From Ascidiella aspersa (lineage: Eukaryota), in NCBI GenBank assembly GCA_963924565.1, contig OZ004612.1:2728001-2792000 (forward strand): a DNA stretch of 64,000 nt, given 5' to 3'. Below are positions 2,611 through 47,637 of this stretch, one piece after another. The notes under the pieces were generated by a model. It saw only the letters and a program-made list of their open reading frames with translations, was not told where the DNA came from and did not search any database. The translations under genes were made by a program, and so were the position numbers. How positions within the stretch are numbered: the stretch's first letter is position 1; each line of letters begins with the position of its first letter.

Positions 2611-2724
2611 ATATCGACGACTGTGCATCAGCACCTTGCGCTCACGGAGGTCGCTGTAGCGATTTGGTGAACGGGTTCTCGTGTGAGTGTCCCAGCCACT
2701 GGGAAGGCGCCACGTGTCAACTCG
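2611..2724 (+). CDS. jag1: Jagged exon, EGF5 ([38 protein letters not shown])
   Basis: ttgcag|AT...CTCG|gtgagt; 114 nt, phase 1-1; 6-Cys EGF. Confidence 0.95.
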
Positions 2725-26700: not shown

Positions 26701-29700
26701 TCTAACTACGCCTAACCAATTCTATAAGCCAGCCATTATGCTCCAATGGCTAATAAATCGTAAAATATAATTTTTAAATGGCCTTGGAAGCTTTTAAGCT
26801 ACGATTTTGAAATTCCTTACGCGAAAAATGCTTCCCAGCTGCTTAAATACCTAAAAGCCCAACAGAGATTAAACACAGCACGCTTAAGTTCCCATCGCGT
26901 GGCCTGGTGTCCCTAGGGGGCCTTTTTGTCCGGCCAAATCGGGCAAGTGTGGGCCTGTCCGCTATCACACCAAGATCCCACGATATCCGATGTCAGGGCG
27001 GCGCTTCAGCGTGCCAACCGACCAATCAGAACCCGTTCCGGGCTCGCTTCATTTTCATTGTAGTTTTGTAAAAAGGGCGCGACTATTGACTAAACACCCG
27101 ATGATATTTTGGCTTCGAGATGCTTTTTTTTACTTGCGCTTACTTTTACAAAGTATATTTTTAACCCGACACCATTGTACGTTTGGAAACAATTAACTTT
27201 TTATTTCGCTGGACTAGGAAAAAATGCTTTTTTTTCTAACATGCATCTCATGTAAATACTCAGTTTTTAAGCTGTTTTGTTGATTTATGTGTTTTTTATA
27301 AGAGCATAGCTAAGATAAAAGTCAAGATTTCCAAAATAATACTTAAAATCATCATTTCTAATCGAACATTTTATGTTAAAATATGTTAGTTTGTGTGGCC
27401 TTGTTGTAATTACCATAAAAAAGCGTTTTAAATACCGCACCAGTCTTCAGCTTAACCCCAACGGTTTTTACCCCCATTTACCCAAATTGCCCCTAAGTTG
27501 ACCCCACTTCCGTCACCCCTAATAAACCCCACACGTGGAATGTTGGAGTTATTACGTAAAGGCAAATCCGCGTCTTCCGCTCTTGTAATAACTCATCCTC
27601 AGCCAGGGAATAACTTTAGGAGGGCACAAGTTTAAAGTGAGGTGGTAAATCGCATATTAACAAAACCACCCTTGTTTTGAATTAACTGAATATGGAGGAA
27701 AACAAATATTAAAAATCACTATTTTTTTGTTTAAATTTATTTTATTAGGAAATTACTTCTAATTTTAATTTCCCTCCTAAACCCCCTCCTCCCTGGTCCA
27801 TAACGTTCGATTAACGATTCCCTGAAACGCGATACTGACAGTTTTTCATGCGAGGATTTCGCGGCATTACCGCCCTCTGTGACGTAGTCAATGGGGCGTG
27901 ACGTCATGCGAGTGACGTAGGTTGCTTGTGGAACAAACTTCGAAGCAATGTTTTATTATTTTTAAAAGCGTTTTGTGCATAATTTTTCAACAGTTTTCTT
28001 AAAGCGATTTTTTTGTTTTTTATCCGTTTTTAAACATCGTTTTGAGGGTTGCGCTTCGTTTAGTGGTATTTGACCTTTTAGTGTTGTACCCTTTTAGAAA
28101 AACTATAAATTCCATTTAACTTTTTTTATAATAAAGTTGTCATCTCGAATAATCAATTAATGACTTAATAACAGTAGAATGTCCTGAATAATTCACACTT
28201 AAGCAGACAAAATAGAATCTTATCCTATTGTTAAACCTACCCCGTAAAACTTTCAATTACCCTTTGGTGGCGAAATACCAACACGAAGTTCAACTATTTG
28301 CAGTTAAATCCTGTTTTAACCGGTTTAAAGTGGTTTAGTCTCACATCGTCGCCAGCTGTTTTGGGGAAACCGAAATATTCACCCAACAAACCCCTGGGGC
28401 ATATTTCAAGCGTTCAGTCAGCCCCCGCTATTGCCCCAACCAGAGCAAACACAGGTGTATGGGGCGACATACGATACCCCAGCCTAGACCCCTTAAACCC
28501 CACAGCAATAGAGCTGCAGTGTGGGTGAAGATTGGAAGGGTGATAATGTGGATGGCCATGCTTCTGCAGTTCAACATTGCTTCGTCTGCCTCCCTTCGCA
28601 TTCCTAGGAGCTTAGGTATTTTGTTTCTTATCGCTTTTTTCATCTTCTGGTGATTAGTGTGATGGAAGCTGCTCCTGAACGCGCATAACCAACCCGGTTG
28701 CTGAGATTTAACCAAGAGCTTAAAGTTATATTTTATTTGTGTGTGAATGGATAACAACTTTAAAACATTCGAATCAAAATTTATTTAAACTCACAAAAAT
28801 TTAATTGTGTTTCTTTCGTTGCCATTTTATTTTTCTAAGCTTGTGTTTTTCTTGTCAAAAACTTAAACAGCACACAGTTTAAACAAAAGAAAAAAAGTTC
28901 CCAAAATGAGTTAGTGCGTAGACAACTTGAACAAATCACCTTGTATCGTTTTTCGTCACAATAGCCGAAAAAAAACTTTTTAAACACGTTTTTAACAAAT
29001 AAATCGTCTGACTCATCCTTAGAGCAACTTCTTCTTCCATTTATGGAAAAAAAACGTTTATATCTACTTAGAATGACGTCAGAACACCACGGATAAACTA
29101 ACGGCTTCAAATATCGCAAAAAAAAACGGGGACTGGCGTCGGCCGGGGGGTCGGGGGAAAGGGGAGACCCTGGCCCACCTGGGGCCCCTGCGACCCCCCG
29201 GCCATCGGAACCCCGTTATGACGTCATAGTTAGCCTTTTGCAAGCTTTGAAGTCCGACCACCGAGATTGCGACATTGTTCGCAGGAATTTGCACGTTTTT
29301 TCTTACAAGAACTTGAATGTTGAATCGCGTGTTAGTTACCTTCGCTCTTTCAGTCGTAGACTCGCCAGTAGCTTTGAAGTCGCGTCGCTTTTTCGTGTTT
29401 TAATCCGCTGTGATGGACTTGTGCCGATCGCGCAGACTTAATCATGATCTTCGCACCTTTTTGTCGCGTCTTTTTGAATTGAAATGACCTCGTGGCGCCC
29501 GGAACACGCAATTTGCGCGACAGACTTTGCTCTGGACATGGCGCTTGTGAAAGTTGAGTTTACCAGGACTTTCACCAAGATTCCAGCCTAATTTTCATCT
29601 TTTTTATGATGTTTATGTCACGCTGAGCAAACAGTGCCCAAAAAAGCTTCAATTGCTTCCGAAAAGGCTAAAGAGATCGAGCCTTTCGCTTTAAAATAAA

Positions 29701-32700
29701 CGGATCCTGTGAAATATTATGTAAAACTTAATTACAATTGCCTTTATCGTTGTATGAAATTGGTTGTAAGCGCTAAAAATGCAGAAAATCAACAAAAAAG
29801 TTCCCAACATTTCTCGTAGCTAAGCTTGCTTCTGGCACGTCACCATTATCGCGCGAATTCTGCATTATGACGTAACACGTCGCAGCGTGCAATTAAGCTT
29901 CGCGTGGTATTCGATAATTGACGCTTCACTGGGACTTATCCGGATGTCTCGCACCTGCTAGCACCAACTTACACCTTAAACCGTAGATTGGTTCAACTTC
30001 GCCAACGGCTACTTAACGGCCAGGTCTTGTGGCCGATTTAAACTGGGCCGGCCTAAAACTTGGCCCTTTTTTATTTTTCCCCGTTTATATTCGCTATAAA
30101 ATTTGTATTATTTAGCTGATAAATATTTAGAATAAAAATTATCAAAATTCTCCAAGACAAAATACCCAACTTATTCTCGTGTTGTTTTTAAAGTTCTTAA
30201 TAAAAGTCAAATTTTTACTTTTTGACATTATTTCTTTTAAAAGCCCCTTAAACCTTTATACATCTGATAGATACAGAAAACTTTAGAAAAAAACTTCAAA
30301 ACTTTAGCCGCATTTTGGCTAGATTGATCACGAAACCTACCTTAAAAGTGTGCTGGCTTAAAATGGGCCGCTGCTTAATCAGGCCTTGGGATTAGCGATT
30401 GAATCGTGTGAAAATCGCTTCGGCGAATAACGAAGGCGGAATAAAAGCGTTTGGTGCAAAATCTTGAGCCAAGTTGCCCCTGGTGACTACAAAGTGCCGG
30501 CTTGTCACCTGCTGAGTGCTGACACAAACACAAGGCAAGGTTGTTAACGATTTTGCCGCCGAATGAACCCGGAACTGAACTGTAGCCTCGAGTTAACACA
30601 CGATTGTGATTTTGCGACGAATTGTGAACTTTAAAGCAAGTTTGCCGGTGAATTAATTGCTGAGTTCCAACAAAATTAAACAACACAGCAATTCAAACTT
30701 TGTGTCATTTTCTTAGACATTTTAACCGTGTATTTGTATCAGAAGACCGATTCATGATGTACATCCAACAAATATTTAGTAATCCACATATTATATGTTG
30801 CCTCCGTTATATACATAAGCTGTATGAACACTCTGTAAAAAACTGTACATTTTTAAACATAAAACTGTACATTTTTAAACATAAAACTGTACATTTTTAA
30901 ACATGACACACTTTTAACGAGTTGTAAGGCAAAAAATCGTGCTAATCCTCGTGTTTTTAAATTGCTTAAACGTACATCAAAACTTCTGTAGCAAATCTTC
31001 TTATTTTTTATTTTTTACCTGTGTCTGCTTTGGTTTATTTCCCATGCACCCGCTTTTAATCCCACCACTCAACACCTTATATTATGTGTCCAGGTGTTAA
31101 TCCTTGTGACGAGAATCCTTGCGACAACGAGGGCGTTTGTACGCCGTCTGGTGGCAGGGGGAGGTACGTTTGCAGATGTAAGGAGCCTTGGAGCGGAAAG
31201 ATCTGCACCGAACGTAAGTACAAAGGGAGGTTGATTGTCGTCATCTTCGCTAATATATTTGAAGTGCTTTAAAACACAGAGCTTAACCATTTAGGTTTTG
31301 AACGAACTAAATCGACCTTTTTATAGTTGCTTTTCCTTAAAATTAAGCATCCTGTCAAGTCTGAAGCGAGTGGCCATAGATTGGTTAAATGTTTTAAAAG
31401 TTTCCAAATAGGCAAAGGTAATAGTTTAACTGCATTTTTATCGACAAATCTCACTTGAAAATAAATGTTCGAAACATGTAAAACCTTTATAAATCAAAAT
31501 AAACCAGAGCCCTAGAGATTAAAAAGGATAGAGATTTAATCGTTTAACCCTATACTAATAACAGTCAGATGTTTTGTTTTCGTTTTCTCAAATACGTAAT
31601 AGTTTGAAAATTCTCAACTTTTGCAATTATACGAAATTTTTCGCCTTTTCACCTGTCAACGTTGCTTCCAAGAAGAAAGTAAAAAGCAAGCACGAAAACC
31701 ATAAAATTTCTTCAATTACCTGTTCATGGCAACCACCTGAATACGCACTCCTTGTAATAATATCCGCCCATAGAATCTCACAAGCAGAACTTCCAGCTTG
31801 TGAGCAAGTTAAGAGCCACCTATGGTTGTCATTATACGACCGCACCCAAACCGGGAAATTTAATAAGGCACACATCGCCTATTCAGCCTCAATTTTGCCT
31901 TTATGGCAGTTTTAAAGACACCAGGGATCAGTTTTTTCGATTTTAACCTTTTTTAAAAATAAACAGATGCGACTTTGAGCATTTACATAATTTCTCCGAA
32001 ATATTAACCATTTTAACTGATTTTTGGCTTTTTAACCCTGCTTTCCGCTACAAAAACCCCCAAAAAAATTTTATCCGGTTTCGGTGTAATTTTTTGGAGA
32101 GTCAGTTGAAAAAATCAAAAAAATCTAATAAGGCTCAAAATCGTATCTGTTTAAAGAAGCGTTTTAAACCACATAAATGCGGTCTGATAGCGCGACATTG
32201 TAACTCGTAATAAACTTATGGTGAGTCACGCTATGGTTAAGACGTGATCAGTAATATGACGTTTGCTAGCTTTTCATTAAGTAAGTGTCCCCGGCCTTTC
32301 GTGGGAACATGTCAGGTCGGCCTTGATTAATTAACAGTTAAACAGGAGCCAGCTCCAAATCACCGCGCTTTCGACGAACTGTTTAATTTCAAGCTGACAA
32401 ATATTCGGGTAGCAAGTCCAACATTCTACTGTTTGTTTGGTAGAATGTCTGTTGAAAATGTGTGTTGTTATACAAAGACAGATGCCAGTTGGGTAATTGA
32501 AAGAAATTAGGTTACACTTGGTCGTAAAACTGCCGTTACTATACTATTTGTTACCTAAAAATAGGATTCTATTTTTAAATACAAAAGTCTGATAAAGCTG
32601 TCTTTTGGAAAAATAATTGGTTGCTTTTTACTAACATTTAAGCAGAACAAAACACAATTTACTACAACATAGTACAGCTAGAAGGATGAAGTAAAAAAAA

Positions 32701-35700
32701 ATGTTTGTTTTTCATGCAATACAATCCATTTAGCTCTGTTTACGTAAAAATACACTTTACTAAACAAACCAATCGTTTTTACTTCCACCTTCAACCGAGT
32801 CTTGTTGTTTCTGTGCAGGCAAGACTTCAGTGTGTAGTGACCAGCCGTGTCTAAACAACGGAACATGTGTCGGGGATGGAAACACGTTCAGCTGTTATTG
32901 CAAGGACGGCTTCACAGGAGATCGCTGCCAGGACGGTGAGTTGGCATTAAATAACCTAAAGACACCGGAAAATTATATAGTATCATGATGGGCCGGTAAA
33001 TCTGATCGCAGAAAGGCCTAATCCTTGTACTAATTCAACAGAAGTTTTTTTTTGTTGAATTATAACGGGAAAGGTGGTATAGCAACTTGCAATAGAAGCC
33101 CCCGGAAACATATCGTGTCTGAGCAGTTATAACCTCTGCTGCAATTTTTTTCACTTTGTTTACTGGATAAATGCGCAAAACCAAACCCACACTTTAAGTA
33201 TGCCAAGCCACAAAAAAAATTAATAGTAGGACTTTCGTTCTTTTTTCAAATTGCTAGCCTCAAGCAAAAACGATGAATATTCGTATGTTGTGGGTAGGCT
33301 TAATGAACTTTACAGCGATCAATTTTATGTGTTTGTGTGGAAAAAAATGCTTTATAAAACATTCAAGTAATGTCGTTTATATAAGTTATAAAATTATAAT
33401 GTGAGGTTGGGCACGTGATTAATGAACTCACATCACCCGCTCATCAAATATAAATGCCAAAAACTTCATTACGTCATAACGATTGTTTGCTCATAATGAA
33501 AAAAGCCGCAGCTCGATTAACATTGACCGCCCAATTCTTATGAATTGCTATAACCACCAAAAAGATGGCAAAAAATACAAAATATAGTGATACATTGCCT
33601 GCAACAATATGGTTAATTTTGAAGGTTGGGTTGATTGATAAATGAATAGTTTTTTTTTCCTAGTGATAATTGAAAAAAAATTTATATTTTTCTCCATAAA
33701 AACGAAAAATGGCGCAATAACCGTCAGTAAGTAATAAGAGTCTCTTTATCTTTCATTTGTATTAAAATTTTGCGGCTCTTAGTTCGACATTAAGTTTATT
33801 GCGACATTAATAATGTAAGCTCGCAATTTCAATATGGTTTGCCACTAAATTGTAGCGCGGGCAACATAACGAGGGTTGGCCGAAAAGTGATCATCAACGA
33901 TCAAAATACACGATGACAAATCGCTTATATCGGATCAAACTGTCTGGAGGTTTAGTAAGACGTTGTAAGAATATCAAAGCCCATACAGAAGTATATATCA
34001 TTTTAACGTTTCGCATAACTCTTTATTCATTTTCAACCCTAAAGAGTTTTTTAAACGGTCAAAATGCTTCCTACTTCTTTGATAACATTTGTTTCGTTCC
34101 GCTTTGAAACGAAACTCTTTTATGTGCACAAAAGATGAAACAAGCCGCAAAGCGCCCATTCGTAGTAACCTAAACTTTCCCGGCGCAAAACAGCCCAAAA
34201 AATACTTGCAATTGTGGTTGCTTCTCAGTTCAAAAGGCCAGGCGAAAAAATCTTTTCAAAGGCCCGTAGAACGTCGAGTTTGTGCGGCGGAACGCGGGGA
34301 AACGACACCTGATCCCGCTTTAATTGCGCCACGAGCCGCAAAAAGAGAATTCCTCTCGCCCTTGCAATGTTTACCGTTTGTCATCCATTAGCTGATGCTC
34401 CCTAACCGGCCCGTGGGTCGTTAGTCGCTTCGGCCCCCGCATTTTAGGGGCTTTTTGGGGGGTGGAGGGCTTTGAGGGGCGCGGGGCTAAGTGTTGAATA
34501 AACGACGGTCGCCTAGCTGCGCGCCAGACGTTTTATCGTCATTAAGGCGCGTAACGTGATATCGTGTGCAACAGAGCGTGACGAGCACTGGAGCGAAACC
34601 GACGCGCGTTTTTATGACGTCACTAAGAGGGTTTTGTCTTTTTTTGCGTAAATGTTAGATTGAACTGAAAATCGACTTTGAAGTGTGAAAAATAGAATCC
34701 GGGTTATTTTTTATAGTTTTGTTGTTTAAACGTAAAAGAAAAAGGGCGTTTCGAAATTAAAAAAATATTTTATAATAGTGAATAATTTTTTTTTTCTCCC
34801 GACGTCTTTAACTAAACATAAAATAAAAACGAAATTGAAACTAATTTTTAAAAGAAGAAAGCAGCTGGAAATATTGACTTTTAAGTTTGTTTTGAACCCA
34901 GATAAATATCGGACTTTTATCATAAAAACAGTTTTTATTGCGATGTAAAACTAACAACTAAACTGCTACAATAAAAGCTTAACAAACGCCCGAAATGGGT
35001 ACGAGTCATTTTAAGATGAAAGAGCTTGTAAAACTGATCACAGCGTTTCGTCGCTTTTAACAACCAAATAAATTTCCCCATCGTTGCAGATGACCTGTTA
35101 CTGTTTCACAGCGCGACAAAAAACGTAACAATCGACGACTGGCGCTGCTAAAAACTACTAAAAATAATCGCGCGTATTTTAAAAGCAGTTTTCTGTTTCG
35201 GGTAGGATCAAAAAAAGCCGTAAGAAATTCTCCTTTTTGTCACCTCGGGTTAATGATTAGCTTTAGTGAGTGTTGGGTTTCTAGCGAACTGCACAAACGT
35301 GGAAGTGTGGTCAGCAATGCGTCTCATAGCCACTTAAATCTGCGCATCGCAACCAAGTAACCCAACACCTCCTGTTTAATGCGGCGCATAACTGCAAATC
35401 CCGCTGGCAATTTGGCGCTTTTTTCGAGTTTTTTATTAAATAATTCTGTCTAAAAGCACTTTTATATTTTTTAAATTTTTATCAGCTTCGGTACAATTTT
35501 TTTTTAAATTCCCTAATTTTATATTTTTAAACTTAAATTATAACAAAAATGGTACAATTTTTTTTTAAATCCCCAATAAATATTTTACAAACTTAGTTTT
35601 AAGAACTTTAGTTCATTTTTTGCTTTAAATCCCTAATATATTTTTAAAATTTTAATTTCGGCAAAAATATAAATGTCTGTAAAAACTTTTCAAATACGAA

Positions 35701-38700
35701 GAATAAAAATCCGAAGGTTTTTTTACCGGGTTATTTCTTCTGTATGTTGCTAACGCTCAGCCACAGATAAATTCAAACCCCTTCTACGCTTAGTTAAAAG
35801 GGGCTTGAGTTATTTGCGATCAGATGCCGAGATAAGAAGGCGTTTGTTCAGTTCATCGCCGTTACGCTTAATAGGGCGCCAAGTAAACCTTCCTAAAGCT
35901 TGTTCGCACATGTGTCTCAATAAGTGTGTGTGTGTTTGCGCGATTGTGAGTGCGCATGTGCATGTGCGCGTTACCCTTAAAAGAGTAATGCGTCATTTTT
36001 TAGGCAAAAAGATGATTTCTTTTGCCAGTGGGGTCACTAATAAAATAGTCTAAACAAATCCCTTATAATCAGATTAATATGCTGGCCTCGAAAACGGCCA
36101 AGAATCAACGAAACATGTCTTGACATAAAAGAAAGTCAAAAATTATTGACTTATAACGATAAATTGTCCAGTATCAATTATCGACACACGGTAAAATATA
36201 TAAACCGCTAAAGATTCTTTCTCACATACGGTGCTTCCCCTTAATTTAACTTAATTTTATGTTGAAAACTAGACAATGTTGTAAATGAATAGAGAGTTAT
36301 TTGAAACGTTCAAAATGCTACATACTTCTGTATGGGTTTTGATATTCTTTCTACGTCCAACTACAACCTCCAACCATTATGCTCCAAAGTTTAATTATAT
36401 TTCCTCACCCTTGTACATTATTCCCACGTTACAACGCCTTGAACGACCAGCTATGTTTAGCTTCCTTTGTGTCGTCACAGTAGCGCACTCGAGTGCAAGC
36501 TTTTATGACGTCACTTGGTGTTCGAATCGTGACTTTAACAGATGTTTTATTTTGGGGGCGCCTTCAAGGATTGTAATTACGCGTGAAATCCAAAACGTGT
36601 CTGATTTGTTCTCCTTTAAAATACACGTTTTTATGAGAACTCCGCTTTTCATAAAGCACCTGCCTTTCCCCAAAAAAATGTTATTCAACGCACGATTTAA
36701 CTTTTTCTTCTTCAAAATTTAAATTTTGTGGCAATCTTCTGGCGGCGCTTTGTCCGATGGCATTAAAAAAAAAATTAAATTATCTATTTTTAACATTTAA
36801 ATTATCGAAATCGCATTTCCTAAAAGTCTATTGTTTCGCCTTCTAAGATTAACTGTAATACTTTTAACCCTTCTATATGTAACCCCACTCTAATGTGTTT
36901 TATTATTTCTAATAATGTTTTTCTTGTTTCCAGATGAGGACGACTGTAATCCCCATCCCTGGTGAGTTTTGTGATTGTAATTTCTGTTTTTTTTAAATAT
37001 TGTGTGTTTATTTTTAACTACATATAAAAAGCCCAAGTCGTACTTTATACCTAATGTAGAATCTTGAAAATGCTGATACTTTTAAAAAGGGTAATCATTT
37101 TTTTTAAACGCAAATAAAATACTCGCCAAATCTTTGCATTTTTGAACAGTTTAACTTTTAACAACATACTTTAAGTACAAGTTAAAAGTGTGTTGCGGCC
37201 ACTTACCCGTGTATTGTTGCGTTGCAGTTACAACAGTGGGAAATGCGTGGATGGAATCAACCACTACACGTGCATATGTCTGCCAGGCTTCGCTGGACCT
37301 GACTGCAGGATAAGTAAGTTCATAGATAAAGTTGTACTATATTTTTAAATATAGAGAAAAGTTCTAAACTTTGAGTGTTTGTTATTGTTTTCCTTTAGCG
37401 GCGCTTTTTTATTTTTGTAAGATTTTTACGAGACACTGTCATACAAATAGCTCACTTTTTGCACTTTAACAATGATAGTATGACACAAAACCTTGAAAGA
37501 AAGAGCCAATTTTTAGGCTATAAAAATGTTCAAGTAGTGAAATATATAAAAAAACAATTACCGGCAGTAAACAAAAAAGCTTTTTTTTCAAAATTAATTT
37601 TTTACTCCTACATAAGGCACGAAGTTAAAATGCCCGGAGATTTAAAAGGATTTTAAAGTAAGGTTGAAAAACAGAGCAGGGTTGTTGTAGAAGTTTTGCC
37701 AAAAGAGGAAAAAAACGCTCAGAAGTCAAGCGAAAAAAGTTCCGACTATTTGTCGGGTCGCGTAAACTTGCTTTTGGCGTTTAAATTTTTTTCGCCACTT
37801 TTCGTTTTGCTTGCCTGAGAACAAGGAAGTTGTCCAGACCCACCGTCGCAAACCTGGGGTTTGGGGGGCTTTTAGGGGGCGCACACGGTAGCCTGAGACC
37901 TTAGGGCACCTGGCCCCATTCGGACCCACCGGGGGCCACTCGGGTTACGTCGTTTACCCCCTAAGTCGCATGCCAGGAACCCCTAGGGGGTCGATGGTAG
38001 ATTGTGGGATAAAGCGGTTGAATTTTGAACGCGCCGAGGTAAATATAAGATTGTTTGCGTGGAACATTATCACCACTGGTTTAAATCGATTTTCATTCTT
38101 TTTTTCATTTTGCGCGTCTTATTTGATCATATCAGTCTTTTTTTGCGATTTCAGCAGCATTTTTATGGCGTTTTTAAACATGACAGGTTTAACTGCTTTG
38201 GTAAAAAGCCATTCTAGGTCCAATAAATCATCTTTATTTGGTCAATATTTGTCTGAAGCAAATACAGATGTTAAACATTATTTAAACTGTCAATGGCCTT
38301 CATGGTTTATAGTGCTTAATAAAGGCTTTCTAAATTATCGACATTTTTCTTGAAAAAAACTCGTTTCGTTCGCCATAAAAGCGATGTACACAAATAACTG
38401 AAACAAATGAGTAATTTCAGAACTGTAAGATGTGTAGAATTCTATAGCGCTTTATTTACCAGAAAAGCTTCTAAAAACCTTTCATCTCATTTGTCCATTT
38501 TTGTCCCGATTTTACGAACATCCTTGTTTTGTCCAGATATTGACGAGTGCTTGTCTAACCCTTGCGCCCATGGAAGCACTTGTATGGATTTGGTGGATGG
38601 ATACAAGTGTGTGTGCCAAGCAGGCATGAGCGGGCCCAAGTGCGACAGAGGTAAGGCAATACGTGGATTTAAAACTAAGGAATTATGGAAAAATATGTTT

Positions 38701-41700
38701 TAAATGGGGTGAATCGAAACAAAATGTAGACCTTGTTAGTTTTCGATAAACTTCAGTTGTGACAATGGATTATGTGAGGTTAAGCTGAAGTCGTGGAAAA
38801 TATCGACACATTTTGGAAATGTACAAACCGAAAAATTCCAATTCCAATTATACAGGCTTTAAATAACCATGACAATTGAAAATGTTTAAAGCTAAGGATA
38901 CCTAAAAAAATGCCATGTTTGTTTAAATACGAAAAACATAAATAAATTTGTAGTCTTTATTAAGCTGTAATTTGTAGCTCAAACCAACAAGTAAAGATCA
39001 AACGGTAAACATCAGTATTTAACCAGAACTTGTGTATTTTCAGTTGATGGTCCACAACTTGCCTGCGTATCAAAGGGCATCTCGTATCCACACGGAACAC
39101 AGTGGAACGAAGTTTGCAATTCGTGCAAATGCCACTCTGGGAAGACCGAATGCAGCAAGGTAAGTGACAGTCTATCTTGCTTTCAATAAGTACTTTGATT
39201 ACTGCTCCTGGGTGCAGCTTCTATATACTGTAAACATGTACAATTTTTCGAACATTGAGTTTATGTCGTCAATTACTTTAGGGGTCATATTTTTTAACTT
39301 TAATGACGTTTAAATCCTCACCCTTGTAGTTGAAATGCAATTGAACAATTATTACCAAACGAAACCATTTTACTCTTTGATCTCCTATGCAAAAATATAC
39401 CATTTAAACAACATTAATCAAACTTTCTAGGCAATATTTTAACATAGTCCAGTCTTAACCCCTGACAAATTTAACCCCAACCCCCATTTTTACCCCAGGT
39501 CTGGTGCGGTCCCCCAGTCTGTTACAACCACAAGATGGACAACATGTTGCGCTGCCCCTCTCGACAGACCTGCAAGCTTCTGACTCCCCCAGAGTGCTTC
39601 ACCCCCCACTGCAAGGCCAAGGGGGTGTGTCAGGGGCCGGACCCCGAGTCCCCCTTTGACCCCAAGCTGCGTTTCGTCGCTTCGGTGAAGGAATGCCGGC
39701 CAAACCACGCGATGCCGAGTCACAACTGCGCTCGTGTCACTTGTATGTTCAACAAGGACGAAGTCACCAAGGTGAGCGATTTTTTGATGAGAGACTAAGA
39801 TTTTAAAGCTGTGGTTCTCAACCAGTACACCAAAAGCCATCGCAGTCTCACCCAATATGTGGACCAATGATGCAAGTAGGGCAGGCTAGAAAAACAACTA
39901 TCCTGCTGTGGGGTTCGAACTCACGACCCCCAATCATACCGGGACTGTCGCTCTATTAACTGAGCTACGCAAGTTTAAAAGGGAGCTAGTCGAGAAATAA
40001 CCATACGCCAATGCTTGTTACATTCTGTTAGTACAAGCAACTTCATATTGAATGGGATCTACAGTACCATGCTTTTGTATCTCAACCATTTATAGTTCAC
40101 GTCGTTTAGTTTAAAGTCATTTAGTTTAAAGGTCTTTTCGTCCTTAAGTCATTTAGTTCCAAAACCAACGTCCAAAACTCGTGACGTTTAATTTTTCTGC
40201 AGCGCTTAGATACTGAAGTTTAAAACCACCAGGCCTTCTATTTATTTGGGCCAAGCAAGTTGCCAGTAAAGAGCTGATACATTCTTCACTTGTGAGCATT
40301 TGCTTTAAAGTTCGCGTTCGGGTTGTGGAATTCCATAGGCACGCGCATAATGGCACTTGCCCTTATCATCTGCAAAGCTTATTGGTCTTTCTCGACCGCG
40401 AGTGCGAATAAAGTGCGACGCTGGCTCGTGCTTTGGTAACACTGGAATAAACACACAGAGCTCAAAGTTGCCAAGGACTTGAGACGGAATAAGCTTTCAT
40501 GTTTAAAAAACTTGCGCCTGCCTGATACTCTACCGAAATCACAGTGATATAAATAGGTTAAAATGGTGAAATGTTTCATGGATGATTCAAAACAGTTTCG
40601 ATTGTTTTGCATAAGTTAAACCCAGCTTTGCATATTATGTCCAAATTGAGAAATAGGTCTAACAAAAAAAAATAACATTTCTAATAAAATTGTTTTCTTC
40701 AATGTTCCATTTTTTTCTTCATCTGATCACAACTAGTTCAGTTATTACAAAAAAAAATTGATCATATTATAATAAACTAAATAAGTTCAGTTATTACCAT
40801 ATTTTTTTAATACAGTTATATGTACTGGTTTAACAAAAAAATGTGCTTCATCTCCAAATTTGTTTGATAATGAATATTAAAGTCAAAAGGGTCGAGTAGA
40901 TCGACATTACCTTAATTAAGACGTTTCAAGACGAACTTGTATTATCTTCAATTAATGTGACAAGCTACATTACCGATACGTGAATAATTGGTCTGTATGC
41001 TATTTTTTTTTTTATTTCACTAACGCTGTTTTATTCCTCGCAGGGAATGTATGTCCACGACCTCTGTCTTGTTGTTCGATCCCTCCCACTATTCAGACCT
41101 TACGCATTACGTCATACACTCGTCATACAATGTGACGTAGCAAACAACGATACCGACGCCATTCAGATCACAATCGTAAGTTGTCTTGCAAAATTAAAAA
41201 AGTCGATTATTTGCTTTATAGTGCAAGAGATTTTGGCATTTAAGGTTGAACTTTTATTAAGTCCCTTATATGTGTGTCAATATACTTGACATTTTGAGTG
41301 AAATGTCAACGTTTTCCTATAAGCCAAAAAATATTAACTGATAAAAAATATAGGAAGGATTTATGTTGTGAGTCTATGCTGCTGTAATTTCACATTGTTA
41401 TGCATATATTATGCAATAGCAATCAAAAAGTTTTCGCCAATATATCGAGGTAATTCTTTATCCCTTGTAAAAAGCTGCTTTAACTTTTTGCATCTACTTT
41501 GTTTTGTCTACCAATAAACCCGGCAGACACAATCTACCAAATCACAGATATGACATTTCGAAAATGAAGACCCCGAATCTTAACGAATTGTTTCATACCC
41601 AATTTAACAGGGGTTAAAGCTTAAATATGATCACCGTGCTTAAAACATCCATGTTCCTTGCAGGCGTCCAACACCACCGACCCTGAGGACAACACGGCTA

Positions 41701-44700
41701 CCGAAGCGAGTTCAGAACTCGCCACTTATCTTCCGAGTGCGACTCGAAACTCAGCTCTTGCTGCACTCACCGAAGTAAGACTTGAGACAACCATTTTAAA
41801 GGGAGGCCATGAAGGTGAGATGAAAGTTACACTAGATTTTCCCGTTAAAATCTTGCACCCACTACATGATAATCAAAATATCATTATTAATTGACACTAT
41901 ATATTCATTAAGAGCTTCATTTCGTTTTTTACAAACGCAACTAGTATTTTTGACACTATATTGTCCAGCCAAACCCATAAATTAAACTAGCTTTCTAGTA
42001 TACATTGAACCAGTTAAAGCTAAAAATCTAAAGGCAACATTTTATAATGTCCCTAAAAATCAATCAAAACTGAGTTTCTGGTTGAAAGATTACTATTAGA
42101 TCTTGTAGCGAAATACTAAAAACGCCGATAGAGTTTTTTTTAATCGAACAAAAACATGACTTTGTGAATCTTATGAGCTGCTAACCCTTGGCAACAGCAG
42201 CAGCTGTCCAAATCAGCAGGAAACACGTTAGTTTCGCTCGTATAAACCACAAAAGACTCTGCTTTATTTGGGATCTCTTGGCTCTATCAACTAAATAAAG
42301 CGACGCTTAATCAAATTGGAACTTCAGCGAATAAAGAACCATCCTTTTCAGGGTTAAAATCATTGCCGCTTATTGTTTGTAAGGGTATCAGTGATTTTTT
42401 GGAAAACTTCTCTGTAGTCGTACCACCCACAAATTTGTTACCATTGTTAAATATCCGATACCCGATTTTACAAAAAAAAATATTTCTTCCGTAACTCAGT
42501 GTTAGTTACCTTATTTCTATATTTAACCCCTTTAATAAAAAAAAACAGTTGTGCAGTTCTCCAAATGAAAAACTCAATGGTCAGCAAAGTGTTTTTTAAA
42601 AATTTCCTAAATAAAAAAAGTTCCATAAACTGCAACAAAACTTCATGCAGATTTACACCAAATTTTACCCGATAAAAAATTCTAAAAAGTATATATTACC
42701 CAAAGGTGAAATAATTAATCATTGGAATGCGTTTTAAAAATTGCCCCCAAAAATAAAATGCTTCGTTTATGTCGGCGTCACAATTTCATTGTTATGCAAC
42801 AACGATCTACAGAGCTGGAATATGGATATTTCCGGCCGCCCCGCCCCCGTATAAACGCCATTAAGCGTCACAAACGCTTCATTGTTATTATCTTCCGCGC
42901 TATTCGTGCTTTGAAGGCGTCTCGCCCAAAACCATCCACAACCGACGAATCTCCACGCTTTTGCGAATAATTGCGCCGAAATTCGCGAGATTTTCGCAAT
43001 TCTAGAAAGGCTCTACCAGCTGTTGTTTGCTTGTATCATTTTCGCGCCATTTTGCTGCGAAAATTCGCCCTTGCTTCGCTTCCGTTCCATATTGAGGTTA
43101 AACCGAGCGCATCTGGACCTAGGTATGACTATGGGCGGTAGCTGATTCGGCTCGTGTTATAAACGCCTTAATGTTCGTCAAATGGCAGATGTTGTCGGCA
43201 CAATAAGGCCTTGGCGTTGTGTGATAATTGAAGGTATGCAAACCACAATACAAGATCCTGCACAGTGCGACGTAAATTGCCCAGCGCGTGCTAAAGGTCC
43301 TTCAAACAGTTATTCGTTAGAACTTGGTATTTCCCTGTGTCTAGCCCACAAAACAAATAAATGTGTTACCACCTACAACACTCATTATTTATTTACTCTA
43401 TCTTTCTTCGGAATGTCGTTCAATGTATAAAAAAAGTAGCTAGTTAATTTTTTTTCTGTGAAATATTAAACCAAGTGCTTCTTTGTAGAAATTGTTTTAA
43501 GCCAGGCTTGTAAAAATATGCGACCGCACACCTAAAAATGTCACGTCATTGCACCTTGTGCGTTATGACTCAGCAATATTTCAGGACTTTATCGTAGACA
43601 TTGAACTGTTAAACTATTGTATGTTTTACTAGCTGGATTTCAATAAAACATGACCCCTAAAAGTAAAAAACAAGTTGAGATTTAGTTTATTCTCTTAACA
43701 CAGTGTAACTTGTGACTTTAAAATAAAGTCAATGGTTAAAAGTACAAAATGAAACCTATTTTTTAGGCAAAATAGTAAAAACATGTTGCTTGAACGTTAA
43801 ACACAATTTTTTTACAATAACACAATATATTTTATGACTTAGACATAAATTTTCGCCAAAAATAACCACATTAGGTTAACCTTACGCTTTGTTGCAAATA
43901 CTGTTATTTAACAAGTTGTTTCTCCCCCAGATTACCTGATCCCTCTCCTAACCTCGCTGGCTGCAGTTCTTATCGCCATCACTGCAGTTGCAATCCTGGT
44001 GTGCATCTGCATCTGCAGGAGGAGCGAGCAAAGAGGGAGGAAAGATGAGGAGAAGATTTCATCCCGGAGGTCGGACTCCATTGACCGCGTCGACAACAAC
44101 AACAAGAGGTTGGAAGAAGAAGCGGCATCCTCCGAGCTGAAGAGCCTCAAAGTTATCGGAAACAAGATAAACAACGTCGAGCTCAGGGACCGTAACCTTG
44201 GCAACCTGGCTCCGGACCTCAACCGTCTCCCTGGCAACAAAGAGTCCAGCCAGGGCGACTTCCGGCACGTCTACAAGAAGATCTCTACCATCGACCTTGC
44301 GGTGTCGGCGGCAGCTGCTGAAAAGCTCACAGTCGCTCTCAACGAGCCCAAGAACGTCAAAAACGCTTCAGCGCAGCAGCACGCCGCGGGGAAGCACCCG
44401 AAGCGATACTCCCAAGCGCACAACAGCGCCTCTAGCGGCGCTTTCGCACCGGTTTCAAGCAGTGTGATCGTGTCGGACGGGATGGACGTCATAGACGGTC
44501 ACGTGGTTGCCCCCCACAACCCCCAAAATCAAGGGGGATGCCCCTACAACAACCGCCGCGACGATGTATCGGATGAGGACGAAGTTTTCGAGTCCCCAGG
44601 TCGTCGCTTGCTTCAGGGGGGTTGCGGGTGCCATGACGTCAGGTGCCCCCACGCCGCCCCCGACGAGTACTCAGAGTCCGAGGAGGTCGCCATGCTAATG

Positions 44701-45336
44701 TCCGGACCCCGTCGCCATAGCAACCACCAGCAGCCGGCCCCGTCCCGCCAACAGCACAGATGCCGACATCACCGCATCGACGTCCACGCGCCCCGGCACC
44801 GCCGCAGGACGCCCCAGTCGGCCCCCCTCTACCCGGACCCCGACTCCGATTGCGTCATCGCCGATGACGTGCACGTGACGTCATCGCAAGCGGCGGGGAT
44901 GAGCGACTCTATGCTGCCACCTTATGAGAGCGTGGTGGGCGGCGAATCGCGCAGTGCGACACCTTGTGACTGCCCGCACGCGCGCCAAGCGTCCCTGGCG
45001 GCGTCGTCGGGCGCGCGGGAACACGTGGCCCCTTCCCCAGCGGCGCCGGGCTACCACCAGTCCCCCCCGCCCTGCTATTCCCGCCATTACCACACCCCGA
45101 CACAAACTTACCGAAGCACTTCGGCCCTCAGCCCGCTCGCTAGCCCTAACGAGCGGCGACACTTTATTTCACCGACTTACGCCAATGTGCCCGGACCCCG
45201 GCCCGGTTCCAGGGCGCGCCCGGGGGCCCGGGAATCCCAGGGGGAAGTCCCCAGGCGTTCGACGTCCCCGTGTGACGATCCCACGAGCGATTTGTTATCG
45301 TCCGATAAAGTATCGTCCCATGAGTTGTCGGTATAG
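2611..45336 (+). CDS. jag1: Serrate/Jagged-family Notch ligand, 5'-partial, 18 coding exons (EGF5-16, vWF-C/cysteine-rich domain, TM, long intracellular domain)
   Basis: Exons 2611-2724, 10979-11092, 11340-11386, 13419-13592, 16758-16908, 19024-19188, 23489-23602, 24775-24888, 31094-31213, 32819-32935, 36934-36961, 37228-37313, 38537-38650, 39044-39159, 39499-39771, 41044-41175, 41664-41814, 43931-45336. All are GT-AG bounded and join in one open frame (3536 nt, about 1178 aa). The interrupted EGF10 (VIDSCT...VCG) and the post-EGF cysteine-rich domain (W...CNSCKC...CSKVWCG) identify Serrate/Jagged rather than Delta. Probably a pro-orthologue of JAG1/JAG2. Confidence 0.95.
10979..11092 (+). 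CDS. jag1: Jagged exon, EGF6 ([38 protein letters not shown])
   Basis: ctgcag|AC...ATCA|gtgagt; 114 nt. Confidence 0.95.
11340..11386 (+). CDS. jag1: Jagged exon, first half of EGF7 ([16 protein letters not shown])
   Basis: ttgcag|AT...CTG|gtaagt; 47 nt, phase 1-0. Confidence 0.93.
13419..13592 (+). CDS. jag1: Jagged exon, EGF7 second half plus EGF8
   Basis: ttgcag|GAC...GAG|gtatgc; 174 nt; [37 protein letters not shown]...RICE. Confidence 0.95.
16758..16908 (+). CDS. jag1: Jagged exon, EGF9 plus start of EGF10
   Basis: ttttag|CGT...GAAG|gtaac; 151 nt; [50 protein letters not shown]; absent from the ORF track. Confidence 0.94.
19024..19188 (+). CDS. jag1: Jagged exon, interrupted EGF10
   Basis: ttgcag|TG...CTCA|gtgagt; 165 nt; [55 protein letters not shown]. 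Confidence 0.95.
23489..23602 (+). CDS. jag1: Jagged exon, EGF11
   Basis: ttgcag|AC...CATG|gtgagg; 114 nt; [38 protein letters not shown]. Confidence 0.95.
24775..24888 (+). CDS. jag1: Jagged exon, EGF12
   Basis: gacag|AC...TCCC|gtgagt; 114 nt; [38 protein letters not shown]. Confidence 0.94.
30839..30904. repeat. Perfect tandem repeat, 22 bp x 3 (AAAACTGTACATTTTTAAACAT)
   Basis: Three exact adjacent copies. Confidence 0.95.
31094..31213 (+). CDS. jag1: Jagged exon, EGF13
   Basis: tccag|GT...GAAC|gtaagt; 120 nt; [40 protein letters not shown]. Confidence 0.94.
32819..32935 (+). CDS. jag1: Jagged exon, EGF14
   Basis: gtgcag|GC...GACG|gtgagt; 117 nt; [39 protein letters not shown]. Confidence 0.95.
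36285..36370 (+). mobile_element. Dispersed repeat, probable relic of a LINE (CR1/L2-like) ORF2 3' end, copy 1
   Basis: Aligns with 47943-48027; translates as [28 protein letters not shown], resembling the L(I/F)ETFK(I/M)L C-terminus of CR1/L2-type ORF2. Confidence 0.5.
36934..36961 (+). CDS. jag1: Jagged 28-nt micro-exon, start of EGF15 ([10 protein letters not shown])
   Basis: tttccag|AT...CCTG|gtgagt; phase 1-2, needed to complete EGF15. Confidence 0.92.
37228..37313 (+). CDS. jag1: Jagged exon, rest of EGF15 ([28 protein letters not shown])
   Basis: ttgcag|T...ATAA|gtaagt; 86 nt, phase 2-1. Confidence 0.95.
38537..38650 (+). CDS. jag1: Jagged exon, EGF16
   Basis: gtccag|AT...AGAG|gtaagg; 114 nt; [38 protein letters not shown]. 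Confidence 0.95.
39044..39159 (+). CDS. jag1: Jagged exon, vWF-C/cysteine-rich domain part 1
   Basis: tttcag|TT...AAG|gtaagt; 116 nt; [39 protein letters not shown]. Confidence 0.94.
39499..39771 (+). CDS. jag1: Jagged exon, cysteine-rich domain part 2
   Basis: ccccag|GTC...AAG|gtgagc; 273 nt; [12 protein letters not shown]...[16 protein letters not shown]. Confidence 0.94.
39901..39974 (-). pseudogene. tRNA-like element (tRNA pseudogene or tRNA-derived SINE head), GGT at the anticodon position
   Basis: Minus strand reads ACTTGCG TAGCTCAGTTAATAGAGCG A CAGTC-CCGGTAT-GATTG GGGGTC GTGAG-TTCGAAC-CCCAC AGCAGGA. It has A and B boxes and a cloverleaf layout, but a mismatched acceptor stem and C33 instead of U33. 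A T5 run follows about 6 nt downstream. Confidence 0.7.
41044..41175 (+). CDS. jag1: Jagged exon, membrane-proximal domain part 1
   Basis: tcgcag|GGA...ATC|gtaagt; 132 nt; [44 protein letters not shown]. Confidence 0.92.
41664..41814 (+). CDS. jag1: Jagged exon, membrane-proximal domain part 2
   Basis: ttgcag|GCG...GAAG|gtgaga; 151 nt; contains [13 protein letters not shown], resembling Jagged NSSLIAAVAEVRV. Confidence 0.92.
43931..45336 (+). CDS. jag1: Jagged terminal coding exon: TM helix plus about 440-aa intracellular domain
   Basis: ccccag|AT TAC CTG...; [31 protein letters not shown] followed by an uninterrupted GC-rich ORF ending HELSV-stop at 45336. Confidence 0.92.
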
Positions 45337-47637
45337 CGGCTGATGAAACTAGTTCACGCTTGTTGCGTTTTATTCCTATTCTCTTATTTAATTGGTAGTC
45401 GCTGTTTTATTCGTTTAGCTTCAGTGTATCTTACCTATCCGTGCCCCCCTAAATGCTCGCTTAATGACCCCCCAAAACACACAAATACCCCCCTGAAAAT
45501 TTACAACTCGCCGAGTAACGAGTAAATGCTTTGGACTGTCGTTTGCTTTTTACAGCGACCGACTTCGACGTTTTTCTTCGGATTTTCGACTAACCTTACG
45601 GAGATGCACTTCCGCGCGCTATGACGTCACGATTTATGACGTCACACGCTTCTGCGTCGTTCTTTTTTCGTTCATTTTTCGTTGTTGTTGTTTCGAACCC
45701 GATCCTGTGCTACGATTCAGTTGTTTTTTCTTCGCATTGAACCGTTTTTTTTCTCATTCGTTTTATTTCTTGTTTTTTCTCTCCAAGGCCGCTTCGTTTC
45801 GTTTTGACGCCGTCTGCCGCGCGTGTTGGGGTGGTTTTGTCCCCCTAAAATAACCCCCCCGCTTTCAAACCTTGTTTCGCCTCTACGCGACGCCAGAGAG
45901 CTTTAAATATTTGACCTTGACACCCGGGTTTGATGACCTTCACCCAGAAGCCCACTGCCCTCTTTGTTTTCTTAAATTTTCGTAAATGAATTTTCTGACT
46001 TGCTAATCGATGCCCGAGCCCCGCTATAACACATACACGGTAACGTGTGCTCAGCAACCCATTTAACGGTAAACAAATAAAAAGTTAATGTAAATAAATT
46101 AAGAAGTGAACTTAATTGGAAAGCTGTCGTGCGGTTCAAGGTTTTCTCTTTCTTTCTGAATTATTTTCGTTTTTTTTTTCTTATTCTATTATGATATCTC
46201 TTTATTTACTATTATTCTTATTATTATCTTATTATTCTTATTCTTATTATTATTCAACAATTGTGAAATTTGAAATTTGCAGCGTGGCTTTTTGCGTGTA
46301 AATAAAGGCCCCAAACACAGCGGCAGACGAAATAAACCATGAGTGTTCACTTGGTAGTAAACATATTGCACTTGAAACAGCTTAGGCAAACTGTGTAAAG
46401 AGGAAATTATATATATGTACCTTTCTTTAGGCCAGAGATCAACAAACGTTTTTCATAAAGGACCGGGTAACTGTAAGGATTGACAGCTTCAGACCGGATA
46501 TAACACTTTGTGTCGAACTTTATTAACTTGATAAAAGTCAAACACTGACTTGTTTTTACCAGCTAGAGTTTAAGATGAACTTAAAAAAAGCAAAGCAAGC
46601 AGACGGCAAACCATGAAAAAGTGCGCTGTGAAAATCCGCGTCAGCTAGCAACTTTTAAAGTTCTTGCCCAGCTTTATCCGCCTGCATTTTTCTGGCTCAA
46701 ATGTGCATTTCGAACTTCTTACAAAAACAAAAGATACAAAACAAATTGCTAATTGTATAATTGTTTTTGCGAAAATTAGTTTTCCATAGCAAACTTTTCA
46801 GAAACTGTCGCAAGAAAACCAATTGTTTTCAGAAATAGCCTATGCAAAGGCACCCAGTCTGTTAATATTCAAACTAATAATTCTGTATATCTATATATTA
46901 TATATCGTTCATCCTGCAGATGAAAAACAGCTAGAAAATGATATTACAAAATTAGACAAAACAAAAGTAGAAGTAAGATATATAAGGGTTGGTAATACAA
47001 ATGATGCTTTGCCGAGATTAAGAAGAGTTTTAACCGCTGTAATACATATATACATATATATTTTTAAATGTTATTTATGTTTTAACCACAGCGCAGTTGT
47101 ATTATACTTGCGAGGCGGTTGGATCTCCTCTCGGCTACAGTAGGGGGCTATAGGGGTGAAAATAAGAGGGCTATGGTGAAAGCGGTAATTTGGATTACAA
47201 AAGCGATCATTGTGTATTGCGAATAGCTATTGCATTATAATATTTAGGCAACTATGTACGGACCTGTCATATATATTCTCCCTAAATGTAACCTGTGTAT
47301 ATGAAAATATACAAAATATATTGATAGTAGTCCCTTTATTTTGATTTCCTTGATCAGGATTTAGCCGAAGTCCGCAAGTATCATGTGGGGATTATGAAAA
47401 ATATCCTTTTATTCAAAATGTAACGTTGGTATGTTAAAGTATAGTGTTAAAGTGTCACGCACATGTTACGCTTTTGTCGCGATGTTATGTTCTGTGCCAA
47501 ATTCCAGGCGATATTTGGCTTTAAATAGAGAAGATATGGCGACACACAAAAGTAAATGGTCGTTACCTGCATGAGAGCTTTTCTATTATAAATAGTTTTC
47601 CTTGTGCATTTTTCGCTATTTTTTTTAAATAACATAA

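What the first reader, a model, noticed from the sequence alone, without database searches (positions are those of the whole stretch)
44015..45336. Jagged with a greatly extended (~440 aa) intracellular tail carrying PY motifs and a PDZ-like end
Seen: a single uninterrupted ORF of 439 aa after the TM helix. It is rich in Pro/Ser/His/Arg and contains LPPY (44914-44925), PPCY (45067-45078), several NxxN motifs (NKIN, NLGN, NPQN), YxxPhi motifs (YKKI, YESV, YANV), small Cys/His clusters ([19 protein letters not shown]), a juxtamembrane CICIC and a C-terminal ELSV. Known: vertebrate JAG1/JAG2 tails are only about 125-135 aa, are ubiquitylated by Mind bomb/Neuralized (NxxN is the Neuralized-binding motif), and JAG1 ends in a PDZ ligand. 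L/PPxY motifs bind WW domains of Nedd4-family E3 ligases, which are mainly described as acting on the Notch receptor. Inference: this ligand may have gained direct Nedd4/Itch or YAP-type WW-domain control or reverse-signalling capacity. This is the best candidate for new biology in the window.
Basis: partly seen in the sequence, partly recalled or inferred. Interest (0 to 1): 0.7.

Follow-up and report, generated by a model that had tools for sequence, protein, structure and literature searches.

The report
Sea-squirt Jagged with long PY-motif tail
This sea-squirt Notch ligand (Jagged) has an inside-the-cell tail about three times the usual length, and its two proline-tyrosine (PY) motifs, kept in all three sea-squirt orders, likely dock Nedd4-type ubiquitin ligases that would pull the ligand off the cell surface, a control other animals' Jagged tails mostly lack.

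Summary
Real and conserved; the mechanism is inferred. The ORF is the last exon (43931-45336) of an ascidian Jagged that groups with Phallusia in a tree, and it encodes the TM helix plus a 439-aa tail predicted to be disordered. Orthologue tails are also long: Phallusia 507, Clavelina 511, Ciona 438, Styela 347 aa. The 110 non-ascidian Jagged tails examined are 70-249 aa. LPPY[ED]S and SPPPxY are invariant in 7 of 7 ascidian-type tails and hold 11 of the 18 invariant columns; 0 of 110 other tails carry two PY motifs. A contig behaving like cDNA spans the whole tail without gaps. The genome keeps Mind bomb, Neuralized-domain and 4-WW HECT ligase genes, and a Delta-type ligand ends in an extended PY motif too (one species only). 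Most likely the PY pair recruits a Nedd4/Itch-family ligase for endocytosis and lysosomal turnover; binding is untested. ITCH-JAG1 regulation has been reported once in mammals, so this is a new variant, not a new principle.

The parts
2611..38650 (+). 13 EGF-repeat exons of Jagged (C2/MNNL, DSL and first EGF exons lie about 3-28 kb upstream of the window)
   Evidence: tblastn with Phallusia Jagged; splice-aware model; DSL 72.4 bits at G000:C6:2708915
39044..39771 (+). two exons (39044-39159, 39499-39771): VWC / cysteine-rich region
   Evidence: Pfam VWC E 6.2e-5, 23.6 bits, under the cut-off 27.6 on the exon fragment; 60% and 46% identity to P0001
41044..41814 (+). two exons (41044-41175, 41664-41814): juxtamembrane ferredoxin-like (PF23575-type) region
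   Evidence: first exon 54% to P0001 988-1035; PF23575 over cut-off in P0001 971-1074; frame continuous
43931..45336 (+). last coding exon: TM helix plus 439-aa intracellular tail and stop
   Evidence: 38% identity over its whole length to Phallusia Jagged; contig X3/14 laid 43929-45344 with 0 gaps
43936..44016 (+). transmembrane helix ending in CICIC
   Evidence: AlphaFold2 pLDDT 85-97 over residues 1-40 of the exon; coordinates
44161..44178 (+). NKINNV: NxxN (species-specific) overlapping a K-x-N-N-hydrophobic stretch; by eye like the JAG1 NTTNNV site
   Evidence: the first N is not conserved in the other tails
44017..44406 (+). membrane-proximal 130 aa holding 14 of the tail's 15 lysines (likely ubiquitin acceptors)
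44569..44592 (+). acidic cluster SDEDEVFE
   Evidence: conserved block in the 7-row alignment
44671..44700 (+). [10 protein letters not shown]: candidate acidic dileucine ([DE]xxxL[LM]) sorting signal
   Evidence: pattern kept at this site in 5 of 7 tails; S248 and E252 invariant; the pattern is also in 73 of 110 other tails
44914..44937 (+). PY1, LPPYESVV: extended L/PPxY motif overlapping a YxxPhi
   Evidence: best-conserved 6-mer of the tail, 0.97 against a mean of 0.30; L, P, P, Y, S invariant in 7 of 7
45055..45087 (+). PY2, [11 protein letters not shown] (PPCY at 45067-45078)
   Evidence: S, P, P, P, Y, H invariant in 7 of 7; PPSY in five, PPAY in one, PPCY here
45319..45333 (+). C-terminal HELSV, class II-type PDZ ligand (hydrophobic at -2, V at 0)
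   Evidence: ends ELSV, EVSV, HVTV, EVTV, EVTV, EAAV, HAVV; H464 and V468 invariant
45337..46336 (+). probable 3' UTR with AATAAA at 46076, 46093, 46301, 46331
   Evidence: X3 and X5 depth continues past the stop

Best explanation
This is the ascidian Jagged/Serrate orthologue with a 439-aa, predicted-disordered tail whose two conserved PY motifs likely bind the WW domains of a Nedd4/Itch-family HECT ubiquitin ligase, which would ubiquitylate the lysines clustered near the membrane and send the ligand into endocytosis and lysosomal breakdown. Shown: gene identity, tail length, conservation of PY1, PY2 and the C-terminus across three ascidian orders, lysine layout, and 4-WW HECT ligase genes in the genome. 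Inferred: the binding, the ubiquitylation and its outcome (a brake on surface ligand and so on signal strength or duration); help from the YESV and acidic-dileucine sorting signals; tethering by a PDZ protein at the end. Mind bomb and Neuralized probably still activate the ligand through diverged sites in the first 100 residues.
For: PY1 and PY2 hold 11 of 18 invariant columns among 7 tails that average about 30% column identity, and survive in Styela, where most of the Cys/His middle is lost. 0 of 110 non-ascidian tails have two PY motifs; 2 of 110 have one. PPxY and LPxY are the known WW ligands of Nedd4-family ligases; Commissureless uses PPCY plus an extended LPSY additively for endosomal and lysosomal routing (PMC12101832, PMC5578492, passages). 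The genome encodes a 4-WW HECT ligase at C3:30.05-30.07 Mb and another at C1:7.16-7.18 Mb. 14 of 15 lysines lie in the first 130 aa; 6 of 7 to 13 of 15 in the others. ITCH is reported to bind JAG1 and degrade it by K48 chains (reviews PMC10288844, PMC12822221, passages; primary paper not held). A Delta-type ligand of the same genome ends in an LPTYEEA motif.
Against: No binding or functional data for any ascidian ligand were found. PY motifs also bind non-ligase WW proteins (YAP-like, KIBRA-like and Salvador-like WW exons are in this genome, names recalled from motifs). The two motifs are 25-51 aa apart, far wider than the 9 residues between the starts of the two Commissureless motifs. In the fly wing disc no ligase besides Mib1 and Neur appears to act on Delta (PMC5675594, passage). 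Raw RNA reads of run X5 are thin and drop to 0-0.09 over 44348-45015; the tool warns that such dips are no finding, but these reads do not confirm the middle of the tail. The Delta-type PY motif was seen in one species only.
Confidence: 0.6

Rival explanations
1. The PY pair and the PDZ end form a scaffold for non-ligase WW proteins (YAP/Yorkie, KIBRA, or a WW-plus-PDZ protein such as MAGI), tying Jagged to junctions or Hippo signalling, possibly as a released tail fragment (reverse signalling).
For: Two PY motifs plus a PDZ ligand on one disordered chain suit multivalent scaffolds; PRRG4 PY motifs also bind MAGI (PMC5578492, passage); mammalian ligand tails are cleaved and reach the nucleus (PMC1965462); a YAP-like WW exon is in the genome (name recalled).
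Against: No MAGI-type WW was recognised among the 29 WW matches (a lower bound, judged by eye). PY1 has the extended acidic-hydrophobic form seen in Nedd4 adaptors, and it sits with candidate sorting signals.
Confidence: 0.18
2. Jagged acts like Commissureless or Ndfip: it brings the HECT ligase to a partner in the same membrane, most plausibly cis-bound Notch, and so destroys the receptor (active cis-inhibition).
For: Same motif pair type as Commissureless. The distal 300 aa hold one lysine. No in-frame PY motif was found in the Notch tail region scanned (C9:26.40-26.42 Mb; the only match lies in non-exonic sequence). The ligand tail tunes cis-inhibition in flies.
Against: The ligand has its own lysine cluster as a nearer substrate. 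The Notch scan would miss a motif split by an intron, and many Notch receptors lack a canonical PY anyway (recalled).
Confidence: 0.13
3. HECT ubiquitylation has taken over the activating role of Mind bomb: the PY motifs make the ligand competent to pull on Notch.
For: The tail has no profile-level similarity to other Jagged tails (best E 0.13-0.45). The DNR core of the C-box is in 96 of 110 other tails but in 1 of 7 ascidian-type tails. The N-box-like asparagine site reads FRHVY in this species.
Against: An intact-looking Mind bomb gene (MZM, ZZ, REP, ankyrin exons) and a Neuralized-domain gene are present. An N-box-like [IL]NN[LIV] is kept in 4 of 7 tails.
Confidence: 0.07
4. The long frame is an artefact (read-through, spliced out) or neutral filler.
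For: The middle of the tail is low-complexity and length-variable; X5 reads do not cover 44682-45015.
Against: Collinear conserved blocks down to the last residue in 7 tails from three orders; four annotated full-length proteins carry it; a gap-free contig spans it.
Confidence: 0.02

Closest known systems
Vertebrate JAG1/JAG2 and arthropod Serrate
   Same: Same extracellular layout (C2/MNNL, DSL, EGF repeats, VWC, PF23575 region, TM); similar start of the TM helix; hydrophobic-x-V end as in JAG1 EYIV; JAG1-type tails carry a near-PY xPxYxLV stretch in 28 of 29.
   Different: Tail 347-511 aa against 70-249 aa (median 142.5); two canonical PY motifs against none or one; no profile similarity between the tails; C-box core mostly absent.
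Ascidian Jagged records (Phallusia A0A6F9DGC2/CAB3257643.1, Ciona XP_078492109.1 and XP_009860298.2, Clavelina P0012, Styela P0013)
   Same: Orthologues with the same long tail, PY1, PY2 and end motif; the window gene is sister to Phallusia (100/100).
   Different: Only annotated, by name; this species has PPCY instead of PPSY, an intact NxxN near the membrane, and has lost the N-box-like asparagine.
Commissureless, PRRG4, Ndfip, Shisa-like PY adaptors
   Same: Single-pass membrane protein with a disordered tail carrying an extended LPxY and a PPxY (LPxY first, as in PRRG proteins; PMC5578492); cysteines at the end of the TM.
   Different: Those are short adaptors with small outer parts; this is a full Notch ligand. 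No homology: the Pfam TMEM51 and WBP-1 hits cover only the TM region.
ITCH-mediated degradation of mammalian JAG1 (Qi et al. 2022, PMID 35385713)
   Same: Nedd4-family ligase acting on a Jagged ligand to lower Notch signalling.
   Different: Seen only through two reviews; one study; canonical PPxY is absent from 28 of 29 JAG1-type tails examined here (no human sequence among them), while ascidians have two.

Membership tests
Jagged/Serrate (DSL ligand) | N-terminal C2/MNNL and DSL domains | tested here: met
   DSL 72.4 bits, over cut-off, 19 kb upstream of the window; C2 exons 61-67% identical to P0001, whose MNNL and DSL pass Pfam
Jagged/Serrate (DSL ligand) | long EGF-repeat array | tested here: met
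   13 EGF exons in the window and more upstream; the 1517-aa model aligns along P0001 with 881 identities
Jagged/Serrate (DSL ligand) | VWC / cysteine-rich region, which separates Jagged from Delta (PMC2770060) | tested here: met
   Pfam VWC E 6.2e-5 on the exon fragment, 23.6 bits, below the 27.6 cut-off; 60% identity to P0001 862-901
Jagged/Serrate (DSL ligand) | groups with Jagged orthologues in a tree | tested here: met
   inside the ascidian clade, sister to Phallusia, 100/100; 16 rows, no Delta outgroup, midpoint root, tail columns included
Jagged/Serrate (DSL ligand) | short tail of about 100-150 aa (typical, not defining; PMC1965462) | tested here: not met
   439 aa; 347-511 aa in the four named orthologues
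Jagged/Serrate (DSL ligand) | Mind bomb N-box and C-box, Neuralized NxxN in the tail | tested here: inconclusive
   N-box-like [IL]NN[LIV] in 4 of 7 tails but not this one; DNR in 1 of 7; NxxN not conserved; judged by pattern and by eye
Jagged/Serrate (DSL ligand) | binds and activates Notch | not testable with these tools
   needs a cell or embryo assay
Commissureless/PRRG/Ndfip-type PY adaptors (works-like comparison) | cytoplasmic LPxY plus PPxY pair | tested here: met
   LPPY and PPCY, invariant cores in 7 of 7
Commissureless/PRRG/Ndfip-type PY adaptors (works-like comparison) | short membrane adaptor architecture and sequence homology | tested here: not met
   full Jagged ectodomain; Pfam hits to TMEM51 and WBP-1 confined to residues 9-67 and 14-46 of the exon; no Pfam family on P0003 or P0005
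Commissureless/PRRG/Ndfip-type PY adaptors (works-like comparison) | PY-dependent recruitment of a Nedd4-family ligase | not testable with these tools
   needs pull-down and ubiquitylation assays

The most novel reading that the evidence does not exclude
Ascidians rewired Notch ligand control around Nedd4-family ligases: both Jagged and a Delta-type ligand carry Commissureless-like extended PY motifs, and Jagged uses its pair to deliver a HECT ligase to cis-bound Notch (or to replace Mind bomb), making the ligand its own receptor-degradation adaptor.
Probability: 0.2. Interest if true: 0.8.

Novelty: new variant of a known kind. Interest (0 to 1): 0.5.

Why it matters
Notch ligand tails are regarded as short docking sites for Mind bomb, Neuralized and PDZ proteins. 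In the sister group of vertebrates the Jagged tail tripled, and a pair of WW-binding motifs became its most conserved element across three orders. If they recruit a HECT ligase, ascidians offer a natural case of a third ligase class built into a ligand, testable in Ciona by electroporating PY mutants. It would bear on how ligand turnover and cis-inhibition are set, and on the single report of ITCH acting on JAG1, whose tail has only a near-PY sequence. The parts themselves (PY-WW, PDZ end) are textbook.

Tried and rejected
Complex prediction of a WW domain from the genome's C1 HECT ligase with the PY1 peptide: no verdict (0.28, mark 0.34, controls not folded); not used as evidence. No RNA holder listed in the run search. 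X5 raw reads (about 6% of the run read) are too thin to test internal splicing; no joint inside the tail was listed, with 14 further joints not shown. Zinc-binding fold from the Cys/His clusters: AlphaFold2 on a 7-row alignment gave 380 of 468 residues under pLDDT 50 and only the TM helix, and Styela lacks most clusters; not supported, though the alignment is shallow. Origin of the extension: the tail matches only its own locus in the genome (1 match of 2 candidates); 0 PDB sequences at E up to 10; Atlas search with homologue P0003 gave a best score of 0.85, lead level only; no long internal repeat in the tail DNA. A profile search of the own genome was not available, so distant paralogous sources are not excluded. 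P0004 rejected as a chance hit: a repetitive prokaryote-like protein. Metagenome scans: no Jagged-tail relative among 542 candidate stretches; 16 of 193 for the Delta-type exon, all in its EGF part. Polymorphism: X2 differs at 4 of 1569 letters over the last exon against 74 of about 3450 upstream, but the 3' UTR contig is as low (1 of 495), so this is not tail-specific. Three look-ups of earlier scan findings returned nothing. Three papers were not held.
Full report
1. Observation. The + strand holds an open frame 43912-45336 in a GC-rich island (0.62 against 0.33-0.37 on either side). An acceptor AG at 43929-43930 opens the exon, which encodes a TM helix ending in CICIC and a 439-aa tail (44017-45333). 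All 13 listed motifs are present. In 20,000 shuffles of the tail, two [LP]PxY motifs have P=0.0085, four NxxN P=0.011 and three YxxPhi P=0.25.

2. The gene. The first homologue search gave 1 hit among 7984 scored candidates: Phallusia mammillata Jagged (P0001, 1622 aa), 38% identical over the whole exon down to the last residue. tblastn with P0001 over the window and 80 kb upstream found signal-peptide, C2, DSL, EGF, VWC and juxtamembrane exons in order. A splice-aware model of 25 exons (the first exon left out) gives 1517 aa with one terminal stop and 881 identities to P0001. In a 16-row tree it is sister to Phallusia within an ascidian clade, both 100/100 (no Delta outgroup, tail columns included). 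The organism is therefore most likely a phlebobranch ascidian (inference).

3. Is the tail transcribed whole? Four runs were laid on 37000-47000. Run X3, whose kind is not on record, has depth mainly on exons and the 3' UTR. The same depth value, 26.5, appears on exons 41044-41175 and 41664-41814, and the exon lengths fit (151 + 132 + 153 nt). I read this as a spliced cDNA contig; the joint itself was not among the rows shown, so this is inference, and contigs drop rare isoforms. Raw reads of RNA run X5 are thin (0-2.1 over the last exon and UTR, first mate on minus) and fall to 0-0.09 over 44348-45015, which neither confirms nor refutes. The exon has no GT[AG]AG donor.

4. Conservation. A search with the N-terminal region found 375 proteins and listed 120: 4 ascidian and 116 others. 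Six of the 116 were dropped for lack of a clear TM or tail. The other 110 (105 vertebrate, 5 protostome-type) have tails of 70-249 aa, median 142.5; 0 of 110 exceed 300 aa, 0 of 110 have two PY motifs, 2 of 110 have one. Ascidian tails are 507 (Phallusia), 438 (Ciona), 511 (Clavelina) and 347 aa (Styela), covering Phlebobranchia, Aplousobranchia and Stolidobranchia. Two unnamed tail-only proteins, P0003 and P0005, came from the representative search (2 of 3 hits; P0004 rejected). Among the 7 tails 18 columns are invariant, 11 of them in LPPY[ED]S and SPPPxYxxH. LPPYES is the best 6-mer (0.97 against a mean of 0.30). Other kept blocks: an acidic cluster, S-x-S-[ED]-E-V-A with a [DE]xxxL[LM] in 5 of 7 (a common pattern, 73 of 110 other tails), and the end H-x-hydrophobic-x-V, which is class II-like as in JAG1 EYIV because S/T sits at -1 (class definitions recalled). 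Not kept: the NxxN motifs (none in 4 of 6 other tails), YKKI, YANV, CICIC, and in Styela most Cys/His clusters. No amphioxus, appendicularian, salp or echinoderm sequence was among those listed, so the age of the extension is bounded only by the ascidian ancestor.

5. Relation to ordinary Jagged tails. Profiles of ascidian, JAG1-type and protostome tails do not detect each other (best E 0.13-0.45). By eye the first 100 residues keep the order NN-hydrophobic, QL, [IL]NN[LIV], like JAG1 around NTTN and its N-box (PMC12678834 and PMC11887331, passages). The N-box-like asparagine is present in 4 of 7 tails and replaced in this species, where NKIN restores an NxxN. The DNR core of the C-box is in 96 of 110 other tails and 1 of 7 here. 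28 of 29 JAG1-type tails carry xPxYxLV, mostly QPAYTLV, a near-PY sequence; whether it is related to PY1 is unknown. AlphaFold2 finds only the TM helix.

6. Partners in the genome. Of 3 DSL matches, one is this gene. One (C8) is a Delta-type ligand whose last exon has IKNP and ends with an LPTYEEA motif shortly before the stop; no strong donor precedes it and AATAAA follows 43 nt later. That matches the extended Commissureless motif type (PMC5578492, passages), but I could not test it in other species. Mind bomb exons, a Neuralized-domain gene and 29 WW matches are present, including two 4-WW HECT genes; the names Nedd4-like, Itch/WWP-like, Smurf-like and YAP-like are recalled from motifs, not from a call.

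7. Mechanism. Shown: layout and conservation. From established knowledge: LPxY and PPxY bind WW domains of Nedd4-family ligases, and PPCY itself works in Commissureless (PMC12101832, passages; PMC6826584, passages). Inferred: the ligase docks on the distal pair and ubiquitylates the proximal lysines (14 of 15 in the first 130 aa), with YESV and the acidic dileucine as sorting signals, lowering surface ligand. I put this at 0.6, against scaffold binding 0.18, an adaptor for cis-Notch 0.13, activation in place of Mind bomb 0.07, artefact 0.02.

8. What is in print. PMC1965462 (parts 1-2 of 4 read) describes ligand tails as about 100-150 aa with Mib, Neur and PDZ partners. Two reviews (passages) report that ITCH binds JAG1 through a WW-PPxY contact and degrades it; I could not read the primary paper. 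Seven searches (listings and abstract starts) and passages of PMC2770060, PMC10970066, PMC5356439, PMC12577249 and PMC5675594 showed no description of the long ascidian tail or its PY pair. The library lacks most subscription journals and I read no supplements. PMC10970066 notes Jagged is upregulated in Ciona siphon regeneration.

9. Verdict. A real, ascidian-wide variant of Jagged with a conserved PY pair and PDZ-type end, present in public records but apparently not remarked on. The module is textbook and has a mammalian precedent; its function here is untested. New variant of a known kind; interest 0.5.

Noticed in passing
L014:5707-6855 (G000:C8:17945707-17946855, +): Last exon of a Delta-type ligand: tail with an N-box-like IKNP and an extended PY motif LPTYEEA near the end; no ATEV end found. 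A second ligand with a WW-type motif in this genome.
   Followed up: partly
L024 and L012 (G000:C3:21.208-21.226 Mb, -): A weak DSL match (29.3 bits) lies 3.3 kb upstream of an exon that looks like a propeptide plus Gla domain (recognised from memory, not scanned), followed by EGF exons, a TM helix and a tyrosine-rich tail; possibly a Gla-EGF membrane protein related to Notch ligands.
   Followed up: no
P0014-P0114 (JAG1-type tails): 28 of 29 carry xPxYxLV, mostly QPAYTLV, and one fish has PPAYSLV; a candidate site for the reported ITCH contact.
   Followed up: partly
window 39820-40070 and 40880-40960: High-copy repeats in Jagged introns (depth up to about 159,000 in X2); the first looks tRNA-derived (SINE-like) by eye, ARAGORN finds 0 genes in the window.
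   Followed up: partly
window 44634, 44876, 45622, 45637: Four TGACGTCA (CRE-type) palindromes in the last exon and UTR; 18 occur in the whole window, so the 8-mer is common in this genome.
   Followed up: partly
window 42496-43807: One X2 contig skips 1310 nt of the last intron with 36 other letters between: a probable insertion polymorphism.
   Followed up: no
L063-L064 (G000:C9:26.40-26.42 Mb): No in-frame L/PPxY motif found in the Notch tail region; exons are fragmented, so a split motif could be missed.
   Followed up: partly
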